Of a stretch of DNA of 45,812 nt, positions 41,613-41,902 are shown piece by piece. The notes under the pieces were generated by a model. The model did not search any database. It was not told the origin of the DNA and worked only from the letters and a program-made list of their open reading frames with translations. Each line of letters begins with the position of its first letter. Positions within the stretch are counted from its first letter, which is position 1. A program made the translations under genes and the position numbers. Source of the DNA: a virus; the UHGV virus genome UHGV-0228494. One strand, 5' to 3'.

Positions 41613-41682
41613 AGCCTCCTCCCGGGTCCAGAACGCACTCAGCCGGGTATGGTTCAGCCCATTTTTCCCGGCGTCTCATGCC

Positions 41683-41810
41683 GCAAATGTTAACTGCTGC
41701 CTGGTTAACATTTGCTGAAAAAGCCTGTTAACATTTTTTCCGCACAACAAACTGAATAATAAAGATAAAAACCGCAAAAATGCCCGGGCAGCCAGTTAAC
41801 ATGTTAACTG
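41683..41810. repeat. Cluster of GTTAAC-centred inverted repeats/palindromes between HNH and TerS (candidate cos or terminase recognition sites, or late operator)
   Basis: GCAAATGTTAAC (41683-41694) and its inverse GTTAACATTTGC (41704-41715); GTTAACATTT (41727-41736); perfect 18-bp palindrome CAGTTAACATGTTAACTG (41793-41810). Confidence 0.5.
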
Positions 41811-41902
41811 CCCTGAAACGGGAATTTTTTCTCTGCGTGAGAGGGGGCGCGGTGTCCAAAGCGATCGTTTTTTACGCCGGATGATACCCCCCCCGGGTTG
41901 GG

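What the first reader, a model, noticed from the sequence alone, without database searches (positions are those of the whole stretch)
41613..41902. GTTAAC-centred palindromes upstream of terminase: candidate cos or terminase recognition region
The 290-bp gap between the HNH endonuclease and TerS carries four copies of a TGTTAAC/GTTAACA motif: an inverted pair (41683-41694 and 41704-41715), one more copy (41727-41736) and a perfect 18-bp palindrome CAGTTAACATGTTAACTG (41793-41810), with a GC-rich GGGGGCGCGG nearby. In HK97-type phages cos lies exactly between the HNH gene and gene 1, so these are plausible terminase or host-factor binding sites. A late-operon operator is an alternative.
Basis: partly seen in the sequence, partly recalled or inferred. 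Interest (0 to 1): 0.45.

Follow-up and report, generated by a model that had tools for sequence, protein, structure and literature searches.

The report
Phage cos site with terminase-binding repeats
The gap between the HNH nuclease and small-terminase genes of this E. coli prophage is its DNA-packaging (cos) site: the GC-rich stretch is the cohesive end, and the GTTAAC repeats are most likely where the small terminase docks, a familiar kind of element in an arrangement not described before.

Summary
Five GTTAAC hexamers lie within 120 bp (P about 5e-10) in the 290-bp gap between HNH and TerS, which are read on the minus strand.

The gap is the phage's cos site. A 97%-related phage, Lys8385Vzw, has a PhageTerm-mapped 10-nt 3' cohesive end, and its record breaks at the homologous point. 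A distant Acinetobacter relative has gel-confirmed ends at the same point.

The GTTAAC elements lie at +34 to +153 inside the packaged left end and behave like a lambda-style cosB:
- Their positions are fixed while the spacers diverge.
- In a sister E. coli lineage all five copies read GTTTAY instead.
- The only TerS residues that track this switch are 25, 32 and 35, in a confidently modelled SF6-type helix-turn-helix. No HNH residue tracks it.
- Most other relatives have one site, overlapping the TerS start (ATG TTA AC = Met-Leu-Thr). An Acinetobacter phage has three direct AAGTTAAA repeats.

TerS binding is inferred, not shown. The operator, RNA-hairpin and gene-relic readings are weaker. 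It is a new variant of a known kind, of moderate interest.

The parts
41903..42268 (-). HNH endonuclease gene (121 aa), the last gene before cos
   Evidence: Pfam HNH PF01844, E 2.7e-7. PHROG 589 HNH endonuclease, E 1.8e-44. 69% identical to the HNH of Salmonella phage FSL SP-016.
41852..41897 (-). Conserved right-end flank of cos: a G8 run (41887-41894, positions -53..-46 from the cut), then CGATCGC, then GGACAC. It is a candidate nicking or termination (cosQ-like) determinant.
   Evidence: The G-run, a spacer of about 30 nt and then GGACACCGC are conserved in Enterobacterales, Acinetobacter, Burkholderia and Janthinobacterium relatives. HK97's own right end has the same layout (GGGGGGGGGATCAAA...GACCGCCGCCAAA|).
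41842..41851 (-). Predicted 10-nt 3' cohesive end, CGCGCCCCCT on the minus strand. The cut on this strand falls between 41842 and 41841.
   Evidence: The Lys8385Vzw record ends ...GGACACCGCCCCCCCT and starts CTCACGCAGAG, and PhageTerm gave a 3' cos of CGCCCCCCCT (PMC7946995). fLi-Aba03 ends ...GGACACCGCCCCCCAT, annotated '3' cohesive end', and starts CGCACGCACAAAAAAAATTCCC (PMC7354433).
41820..41841 (-). Conserved left-end core, +1..+22: CTCACGCAGAGAAAAAATTCCC, with an A-tract
   Evidence: Nearly invariant in all relatives whatever their TerS helix-turn-helix type, including Burkholderia and Acinetobacter.
41793..41810 (.). Site 1: perfect palindrome CAGTTAACATGTTAACTG (+32..+49), made of two half-sites. 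It sits where most relatives have the TerS start codon.
   Evidence: It becomes ATAAACATGTTTAT in the type-B lineage.
41737..41792 (-). T-tract-rich spacer between site 1 and site 2, with runs of T about 10 bp apart (probable intrinsic bend). No IHF consensus.
   Evidence: Sequence. T-tracts recur in diverged variants. No WATCAANNNNTTR match with <=1 mismatch inside the spacer in any of the 7 variants scanned; the only hit overlaps site 1 in L413.
41727..41736 (-). Site 2: AAATGTTAAC (+106..+115)
   Evidence: It becomes AAATGTTTAT in type-B loci at the same position.
41704..41715 (-). Site 3: GCAAATGTTAAC (+127..+138), left arm of the 12-bp inverted repeat
   Evidence: It becomes AAATGTTTAC in type B.
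41683..41694 (-). Site 4: GTTAACATTTGC (+148..+159), right arm of the inverted repeat
   Evidence: It becomes GTAAACATTT in type B.
41049..41612 (-). Small terminase gene (187 aa, GTG start at +230). Residues 1-56 (41445-41612) form the helix-turn-helix DNA-binding domain, and residues 25, 32 and 35 track the repeat type.
   Evidence: Pfam Terminase_2. AlphaFold gives pLDDT >90 for residues 1-56, with helices 19-25 and 33-41. Best PDB fold match is the SF6 G1P DNA-binding domain 4zc3, TM 0.84.
39391..41052 (-). Large terminase gene (553 aa), HK97-type
   Evidence: Pfam TerL_ATPase PF03354 plus TerL_nuclease PF20441. 23% identical to HK97 gp2 over most of its length (residues 59-534 of 553), E 2e-11.

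Best explanation
The 290-bp gap is the cos (cohesive-end) packaging site of an E. coli lambdoid prophage that combines an HK97-type large terminase and HNH nuclease with an SF6/SPP1-type small terminase.

Reading the minus strand, which is the direction of transcription and packaging, the proposed mechanism is:
- Terminase with the HNH protein nicks concatemeric DNA at ...GGACAC[CGCGCCCCCT]|CTCACGC..., leaving a 10-nt 3' overhang (window 41851..41842).
- The DNA from 41841 downward becomes the left end that enters the capsid first.
- Five half-sites of consensus AAATGTTAAC lie inside that end. They form a palindrome at +32..+49, a single copy at +106..+115 and an inverted pair at +127..+159. 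A T-tract spacer that probably bends the DNA follows the palindrome.
- These half-sites are docking sites for the helix-turn-helix domains of oligomeric TerS, which positions TerL on the nick site. This is the role cosB R3-I1-R2-R1 plays for lambda gpNu1.

What is shown and what is inferred:
- Shown here: the repeats; their fixed positions; their concerted change together with TerS residues 25, 32 and 35; the fold of the TerS N-terminal domain; and the homology of the cut site to mapped ends.
- Taken from the literature: the 10-nt 3' ends in two relatives.
- Inferred: that TerS binds the repeats, and that the spacer bends.
For: Cos position:
- Record boundaries of Lys8385Vzw and fLi-Aba03 coincide with the homologue of 41842/41841.
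- Their papers report 10-nt 3' cohesive ends CGCCCCCCCT (PMC7946995) and CGCCCCCCAT (PMC7354433).
- The flanking core is conserved across about 25 genera-level relatives and resembles HK97's right end.

Repeats as TerS sites:
- Enrichment has P of about 5e-10.
- Half-site positions are +34, +42, +108-110, +132-134 and +147-149 in diverged variants whose spacers differ.
- All unique upstream sequences paired with T32/V35 TerS in E. coli (65 of them) carry 4-6 GTTAAC. All 6 paired with S32/C35 TerS carry 0 GTTAAC and 5 GTTTAY/RTAAAC.
- Among 49 versus 6 unique TerS proteins, only columns 25, 32 and 35 segregate with site type. No column of the HNH does (28 versus 3 unique sequences).
- Those residues end helix 2, cap helix 3 and lie in helix 3 of a helix-turn-helix modelled at pLDDT >90. 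The model matches the SF6 small-terminase DNA-binding domain.
- Relatives carry GTTAA-core sites in the same place in other arrangements: GTWAAC-ATGTTAAC over the TerS start, TGTTAA-N5-TTAACA in Burkholderia, non-coding GTTAAC x2 in Pantoea, and three direct AAGTTAAA in Acinetobacter.
Against: - No binding experiment exists for any member of this TerS group.
- In HK97, the only structurally solved cos-TerS complex, TerS binds one 15-bp site at +15..+29 (PMC11331095). In this family that interval holds the invariant A-tract core, so TerS might bind there and the repeats might serve another factor.
- The helix-turn-helix codons and the repeats lie within 300 bp of each other. Type B could be a single clade (six TerS variants), so part of the association may be linkage.
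- For the inverted pairs, the GTTAAC to GTTTAC/GTAAAC change is also what a hairpin model predicts.
- ATGTTAAC equals the Met-Leu-Thr codons of TerS, so the copies may have begun as duplicated 5' gene ends.
- The ends of this particular prophage have not been mapped.
Confidence: 0.66

Rival explanations
1. The copies are non-functional relics. ATG TTA AC encodes the Met-Leu-Thr start of TerS, and the roughly 190 extra bases (41613-41792) are decayed duplications or recombination scars of TerS 5' ends.
For: In FSL SP-016 and about 20 other relatives the gap is about 106 bp and ACATGTTAACAG is the TerS start itself. The window TerS is a mosaic: its N-terminus resembles one group and its C-terminus another. 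Site 3 plus its flank loosely resembles ATGTTAACAGGGCAGAAG.
Against: Relics should decay independently. Instead the hexamers and their positions are kept while the spacers diverge, and all five switch together to GTTTAY in type B. The ORFs that start at the site-1 ATG are not conserved, running 5-24 aa with unrelated sequences. The non-coding left half-site GTWAAC is conserved in short-gap relatives, and Pantoea keeps non-coding GTTAAC x2. This reading may explain where the copies came from, but not why they persist.
Confidence: 0.12
2. The inverted repeats act as RNA (or DNA) hairpins in the terS leader, controlling translation or transcription termination within the late operon.
For: The 242-nt leader folds to -79.5 kcal/mol with z = -2.3. 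The 12-bp perfect inverted repeat and the 18-bp palindrome are hairpin-capable. The type A to type B changes are compensatory within each inverted pair.
Against: No terminator-like site was found and there is no Rfam match. Site 2 is a lone direct copy, yet it changes in step. Three separate units share the same base change, which pairing does not require. The Acinetobacter phage and the satellite-like element carry direct repeats that cannot form hairpins. The palindrome's stem would be AU-rich and would leave no loop unless its central pairs open.
Confidence: 0.1
3. The repeats are operators for a transcription factor that controls the head genes. The factor could be phage-encoded, such as the divergent DUF3950 protein at 42310-42507, or a host protein.
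For: Palindromes are typical operators. A small DUF3950 protein is encoded nearby.
Against: No sigma-70-like promoter was found on the gene strand. The only hit in the gap is on the opposite strand and is made of the repeats themselves. The DUF3950 gene is absent from the sequence held upstream of cos (about 1.4 kb in most loci) in the 25 non-E. coli loci searched, nearly all of which keep site 1. It is 94% identical in a type-B locus whose sites differ. No known E. coli regulator consensus that I recalled fits; that check rests on memory and was not tested. The lambdoid late operon is normally driven from pR' by Q antitermination (established knowledge).
Confidence: 0.07
4. The clustering of GTTAAC is chance or a compositional artefact.
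For: None beyond the AT-richness of the spacer.
Against: P is about 5e-10 (2e-7 after correcting for the number of windows). None of 100 shuffles of the window reached the observed TGTTAAC count. The repeats are conserved in 94 phage records and in 1283 of 5426 complete E. coli genomes.
Confidence: 0.01

Closest known systems
Bacteriophage lambda cos (cosN + cosB: R3-I1-R2-R1 bound by gpNu1), and the lambda/21/N15 packaging-specificity groups
   Same: Several TerS-site repeats in mixed orientation lie between the nick site and the TerS gene, about 30-160 bp inside the left end. The TerS start follows about 200 bp from the cut. The recognition helix and the repeat sequence differ together between specificity groups. 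Both 'complex' (multi-site) and 'simple' (single-site) versions exist within one family, as with Monarch versus N15 (PMC4669245).
   Different: The TerS family is unrelated: Terminase_2/SF6-type helix-turn-helix here, not the gpNu1 winged helix. The predicted overhang is 10-nt 3', not 12-nt 5'. An HNH partner gene is present. No IHF consensus lies between the first two sites. Site 1 is itself a palindrome.
HK97 cos with gp1 (TerS), gp2 (TerL) and gp74 (HNH)
   Same: The gene order is HNH, cos, TerS, TerL. TerL has the same Pfam families. The 10-nt 3' cohesive ends are shared, by homology. The right-end flank is shared: G-run, about 30 nt, then GACCGCC. An A/T-tract lies just inside the left end.
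   Different: TerS is not homologous: BLASTP finds nothing and HK97 gp1 has no Terminase_2 hit. HK97 TerS binds one 15-bp site at +15..+29 through its channel and an arginine clamp (PMC11331095). Here there is an array of five helix-turn-helix-type half-sites from +34 to +153.
SPP1/SF6 G1P small terminase and its pac site (pacL/pacR repeat boxes)
   Same: The fold of the N-terminal DNA-binding domain is the same (4zc3/2cmp/3zqq) and so is the Pfam family. In SPP1 (from my own knowledge, not checked here), the oligomeric TerS recognises several short repeats in bent DNA.
   Different: SPP1 and SF6 package by the headful (pac) route without unique ends. Here the ends are cohesive and sequence-defined. 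The repeats lie on one side of the cut only.
[quoted passage not shown]
   Same: They share the cos core and the overhang (CGCCCCCCCT and CGCCCCCCAT against CGCGCCCCCT here). Lys8385Vzw carries the same GTTAAC array.
   Different: Those papers report only the cohesive end. The repeats and their link to TerS were not described in the text I read.

Membership tests
HK97-type cos packaging module | HNH endonuclease gene immediately upstream of cos and the terminase genes | tested here: met
   HNH at 41903-42268 (Pfam/PHROG), followed by the gap, TerS and TerL.
HK97-type cos packaging module | Large terminase of the PF03354/PF20441 type, related to HK97 gp2 | tested here: met
   BLASTP against gp2 gives 23% identity, E 2e-11, over most of its length (residues 59-534 of 553).
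HK97-type cos packaging module | 10-nt 3'-protruding cohesive ends | not testable with these tools
   No virion reads exist for this prophage. The feature is supported by homology: the ends of Lys8385Vzw and fLi-Aba03 and their papers.
HK97-type cos packaging module | Small terminase homologous to HK97 gp1, binding one site at +15..+29 | tested here: not met
   No BLASTP similarity. HK97 gp1 has no Pfam hit, whereas the window TerS is Terminase_2.
Lambda-type cosB | Three or more TerS-site repeats between the nick site and the TerS gene, in mixed orientation | tested here: met
   Five half-sites from +34 to +153, oriented < > > > <.
Lambda-type cosB | IHF site (I1) between the first and second repeat | tested here: not met
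   No WATCAANNNNTTR match with <=1 mismatch in the spacer of any of 7 variants scanned; the one hit overlaps site 1 in L413. Phased T-tracts occupy the spacer instead.
Lambda-type cosB | gpNu1-type winged-helix TerS and a 12-nt 5' overhang related to GGGCGGCGACCT | tested here: not met
   TerS is Terminase_2 with an SF6-like fold. The overhang homologue is CGCGCCCCCT, a 3' end in relatives.
Lambda-type cosB | Repeat sequence and TerS recognition helix co-vary between specificity groups | tested here: met
   GTTAAC goes with A/T25-T32-V35, and GTTTAY goes with E25-S32-C35. The split is perfect over 49 versus 6 unique TerS proteins.
SF6/SPP1 G1P small terminase (Pfam Terminase_2) | N-terminal helix-turn-helix DNA-binding domain of the G1P fold | tested here: met
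   Pfam E 1.3e-8. Foldseek against 4zc3 gives TM 0.84, rmsd 1.6 A, 30% identity.
SF6/SPP1 G1P small terminase (Pfam Terminase_2) | Headful (pac) packaging with permuted ends | tested here: not met
   Relatives have defined cohesive ends. Their records break at one conserved point.

The most novel reading that the evidence does not exclude
E. coli prophages of this very common packaging family (present in 24% of complete genomes, with up to 8 copies per genome) fall into at least two mutually exclusive packaging-specificity groups. The groups are set by three residues of the TerS helix-turn-helix (A/T25-T32-V35 versus E25-S32-C35) and by matching five-site arrays (GTTAAC versus GTTTAY). Co-resident Stx and non-Stx prophages, and satellites that carry the same cos core with their own TerS, would then compete for or partition one shared TerL/HNH machine through TerS-site recognition. 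This would be a natural lambda/21-like specificity system in HK97-type phages.
Probability: 0.4. Interest if true: 0.6.

Novelty: new variant of a known kind. Interest (0 to 1): 0.45.

Why it matters
This packaging module sits in Shiga-toxin phages (BP-4795, 2851, YYZ-2008, 1717 and the Stx1a/Stx2c phages) and in about a quarter of complete E. coli genomes. Knowing where the genome is cut and what TerS reads has three uses:
- It helps predict which co-resident prophages and satellites can be packaged together, and so how stx and other cargo spread.
- It gives a simple sequence marker for packaging-specificity groups.
- It offers a tractable system, with three residues and one base pair per site, for studying how SF6-type small terminases recognise DNA. 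That question is still debated, and HK97 is the only solved cos complex.

None of this changes the general picture of cos packaging.

Tried and rejected
- Phage records that begin inside the gap. Among 94 blastn hits none did. The informative record, Lys8385Vzw, turned up only through the TerL protein search.
- Record starts of other relatives. Those of Burkholderia vB_PR2a, Stenotrophomonas Silvanus and Pseudomonas BR161c are not at the homologous cut and look arbitrary or partial. phiL7 starts 10 nt upstream of the homologous point, which would fit an overhang written at the left end, but I found no paper text to confirm it.
- IHF site. None in the spacer.
- Intrinsic terminator or promoter on the gene strand. 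None.
- Rfam. No match.
- DUF3950 protein as the binder. Rejected.
- HNH as the binder. No segregating residue.
- IMG/VR scans with four TerS variants. These returned almost only type-A helix-turn-helix sequences, so the type-B sample had to come from exact-protein look-ups.
- Within-lineage variation. At 93-99% identity it was too low to be informative.
- Host regulator consensus sequences recalled from memory (LexA, PurR, DeoR, Fis, GntR-type). None fitted GTTAAC. This was not formally tested.

Full report
**1. What is there**

The genes around the finding are read on the minus strand.
- HNH endonuclease, 41903-42268 (Pfam HNH).
- A 290-bp gap, 41613-41902.
- Small terminase TerS, 41049-41612 (Pfam Terminase_2, GTG start).
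- Large terminase TerL, 39391-41052 (PF03354 and PF20441).
- A prohead protease-capsid fusion and a portal gene follow. Lysis genes lie upstream.

The only correction is that there are five GTTAAC hexamers, not four, at 41689, 41704, 41727, 41795 and 41803. The whole window has 14, so 0.037 are expected in 120 bp, and P(>=5) is about 5e-10. TGTTAAC occurs 11 times against 3.1 expected, and six of the 11 are here.

**2. Where the sequence comes from**

The gap with its flanks is 94-100% identical to 94 phage records. These include the Stx phages BP-4795, 2851, YYZ-2008 and 1717 and many Stx1a, Stx2a and Stx2c prophages. It also occurs in 1283 of 5426 complete E. coli genomes, with up to 8 copies per genome. 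It is a very common lambdoid-prophage packaging module.

**3. The cos cut site**

A TerL protein search found Escherichia phage Lys8385Vzw (TerL 97% identical), whose record starts 229 bp upstream of TerS.
- The record begins CTCACGCAGAGAAAAAATTCCCG and ends GGACACCGCCCCCCCT.
[quoted passage not shown] - They have 10-nt 3' cohesive ends, CGCCCCCCAT, found by PhageTerm and confirmed by a heat/cool restriction gel (PMC7354433).
- The fLi-Aba03 record ends GGACACCGCCCCCCAT, annotated '3' cohesive end', and starts CGCACGCACAAAAAAAATTCCC.

Both breaks align to the same point of the window. On the minus strand this reads ...GGACAC[CGCGCCCCCT]|CTCACGCAGAGAAAAAATTCCC.... The predicted cohesive end is therefore 41851..41842, and the left end of the packaged genome starts at 41841 and runs toward TerS.

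The flanks are conserved in about 25 relatives from Enterobacterales, Burkholderia and Janthinobacterium:
- a G7-9 run at -53..-46;
- GGACACCGC just before the cut;
- CTCACGCRCAGAAAAAATTCCC just after it.

HK97's own right end has the same layout: GGGGGGGGGATCAAA...GACCGCCGCCAAA|. This agrees with the HK97-type TerL and the HNH partner. I have not mapped ends for this prophage, so the cut site rests on homology.

**4. What the GTTAAC elements are**

Counting from the cut, with +1 at 41841:
- the palindrome spans +32..+49 (hexamers at +34 and +42);
- AAATGTTAAC spans +106..+115;
- the inverted pair spans +127..+138 and +148..+159;
- TerS starts at +230.

Most relatives have a much shorter layout. 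In Salmonella phage FSL SP-016 (TerL 83%, HNH 69%, TerS 49% identical) the gap is only 106 bp. It aligns to window 41795-41901, and ACATGTTAACAG there is the TerS start: ATG TTA ACA = Met-Leu-Thr. The same holds in about 20 genera-level relatives: cut, A-tract, Shine-Dalgarno GGAGG, GTWAAC, then ATGTTAAC at about +46.

The window's palindrome therefore sits where TerS normally begins. The next roughly 190 bp, carrying three more copies, are specific to the E. coli lineage, whose TerS now starts GTG CTG ACA.

This raised the possibility that the copies are mere relics of gene 5' ends. Four observations argue that they are kept for a DNA-level function.

(a) The left, non-coding half-site is conserved in the short-gap relatives. 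Pantoea, whose TerS also starts further downstream, keeps two non-coding GTTAAC at the old position. Burkholderia and Janthinobacterium have TGTTAA-N5-TTAACA. The Acinetobacter phage has three direct AAGTTAAA repeats between the cut and TerS.

(b) The half-site positions stay fixed in E. coli variants whose spacers have diverged freely: +34, +42, +108-110, +132-134 and +147-149.

(c) The short ORFs that begin at the site-1 ATG are not conserved.

(d) This is the most telling point. One sister lineage has all five half-sites changed in the same way. It comprises loci L088-L090 and L407-L412, with six distinct TerS proteins in the segregation analysis.
- ATAAACATGTTTAT replaces GTTAACATGTTAAC.
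- AAATGTTTAT replaces AAATGTTAAC.
- AAATGTTTAC-N9-GTAAACATTT replaces the GTTAAC pair.

**5. Link to TerS**

I sorted all loci with a recognisable TerS start.
- All 65 unique upstream sequences paired with T32/V35 TerS in E. coli have 4-6 GTTAAC.
- All 6 paired with S32/C35 TerS have no GTTAAC and five GTTTAY/RTAAAC.
- Across 49 versus 6 unique TerS proteins, only three alignment columns separate the two groups: residue 25 (A or T versus E), residue 32 (T versus S) and residue 35 (V versus C).
- No column of the HNH protein separates them (28 versus 3 unique sequences).

An AlphaFold model built from 34 homologues gives pLDDT >90 for residues 1-56, with helices at 4-14, 19-25, 33-41 and 44-56. 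Residue 25 ends helix 2, residue 32 caps helix 3, and residue 35 lies in the first turn of helix 3. Helix 3 is the expected recognition helix of a helix-turn-helix.

The domain's best structural matches are the DNA-binding domain of the SF6 small terminase (4zc3, TM 0.84, rmsd 1.6 A) and the PaP3 and NV1 small terminases. The sequence search agrees weakly.

The rest of TerS is shuffled independently of the helix-turn-helix. For example, P0018 has the type-B helix-turn-helix on a type-A-like body. The helix-turn-helix and the sites therefore travel as a unit.

**6. Mechanism proposed**

Oligomeric TerS docks its helix-turn-helix domains on the AAATGTTAAC half-sites inside the left end. The T-tract spacer between site 1 and site 2 has T-runs about 10 bp apart and probably bends the DNA. 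This inference rests on the established behaviour of phased A/T-tracts. No IHF consensus is present.

This places TerL and the HNH protein on the conserved nick region, where they make the staggered cut. In function it matches lambda's cosB, including recognition-helix and site specificity groups and 'complex' versus 'simple' versions within one family (PMC4669245).

It differs from HK97, whose unrelated TerS reads a single 15-bp site at +15..+29 (PMC11331095).

TerS binding is inferred from co-variation and has not been demonstrated.

**7. Rivals**

- Gene relics. This may explain the origin of the copies, but not their concerted change or fixed positions.
- RNA or DNA hairpins. The leader is somewhat more stable than shuffled sequence (z = -2.3), and changes within the inverted pairs are compensatory. 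However, site 2 is a lone copy that changes too, three separate units share the same change, other relatives use direct repeats, and there is no terminator or Rfam match.
- Operator. No promoter was found on the gene strand. The nearby DUF3950 gene is absent from the upstream sequence held for the relatives that keep the site, and it is nearly unchanged in a type-B locus.
- Chance. Excluded.
- Caveats for the favoured model. The helix-turn-helix codons and the sites are physically linked. Type B may be one clade. The invariant A-tract at +12..+19 could be the true TerS contact, as in HK97.

**8. Novelty**

The cohesive end of a near-identical phage is published. The repeat array, its simple and complex forms and its co-variation with the TerS helix-turn-helix were not mentioned in the passages I read. 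A library search for GTTAAC with terminase and cos found nothing relevant.

I file it as a new variant of a known kind: an HK97-type nick module, an SF6-type TerS and a lambda-like multipartite recognition array. It is of moderate interest.

Noticed in passing
L084-L086 (E. coli contigs AATOBA010000003.1 and others), TerS at 1201-1689, cos-like core at about 1100-1150: This looks like a phage-satellite element. It carries a D5_N/AAA_25 primase, three small ORFs, a cos core (GGACACCGCCCCCCGT|CTCATTCGTAGAAAATTTT) with two direct AAAAGTTACAC repeats, its own 162-aa TerS, and a 307-aa protein that matches only the C-terminal part of protease-capsid fusion head proteins. No TerL was seen in the 1.2 kb held on either side. 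Its TerS is 47% identical overall to the window TerS, with the closest similarity in the C-terminal half, and has a different helix-turn-helix. It may hijack this phage family's TerL/HNH.
   Followed up: partly
L423 (PPompW_699, LC567826.1) 2470-2480; equivalent to window ~41887-41891: In PPompW prophages an IS110-family element (ISEc20) abuts the cos region inside the conserved G/C run. The HNH and lysis genes are missing there, and Q and tRNA genes sit directly next to the IS. These prophages are probably defective in packaging.
   Followed up: partly
window 41848 (and alignment): The cohesive end is polymorphic among near-identical prophages: CGCGCCCCCT here against CGCCCCCCCT in Lys8385Vzw and others. 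Co-resident prophages may have mismatched overhangs.
   Followed up: no
window 41049-41612 and proteins P0010, P0018, P0054, P0063: TerS is mosaic. Its helix-turn-helix, its low-complexity middle and its C-terminal helices recombine independently. The E. albertii variant P0001 carries a 15-aa tandem duplication (DKPRRREAAAIPQPD x2) in the disordered linker.
   Followed up: partly
window 42310-42507 (+): A small DUF3950 protein (66 aa, Pfam E 3e-19) is encoded divergently just upstream of the HNH gene. Its function is unknown. It is present only in the E. coli members examined.
   Followed up: partly
window 6691-23647 (+) versus 23493-45577 (-): The ORF layout suggests two phage structural modules facing each other. 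Large plus-strand ORFs (641, 533, 484, 853 and 730 aa) run up to about 23.6 kb, and the minus-strand module studied here begins at about 23.5 kb. This could be tandem or convergent prophages, or a recombinant. It was not annotated.
   Followed up: no
window 11246-11253: There is an isolated TGTTAACA palindrome in the other module, the only other place in the window where TGTTAAC occurs on both strands. It is probably chance.
   Followed up: no
L025 (Morganella morganii) about 130-175 bp upstream of TerS: Two GTTAAC plus GGTTAAT repeats lie upstream of the G-run, on the right-end side of cos, rather than downstream. This may be a different arrangement of sites.
   Followed up: no
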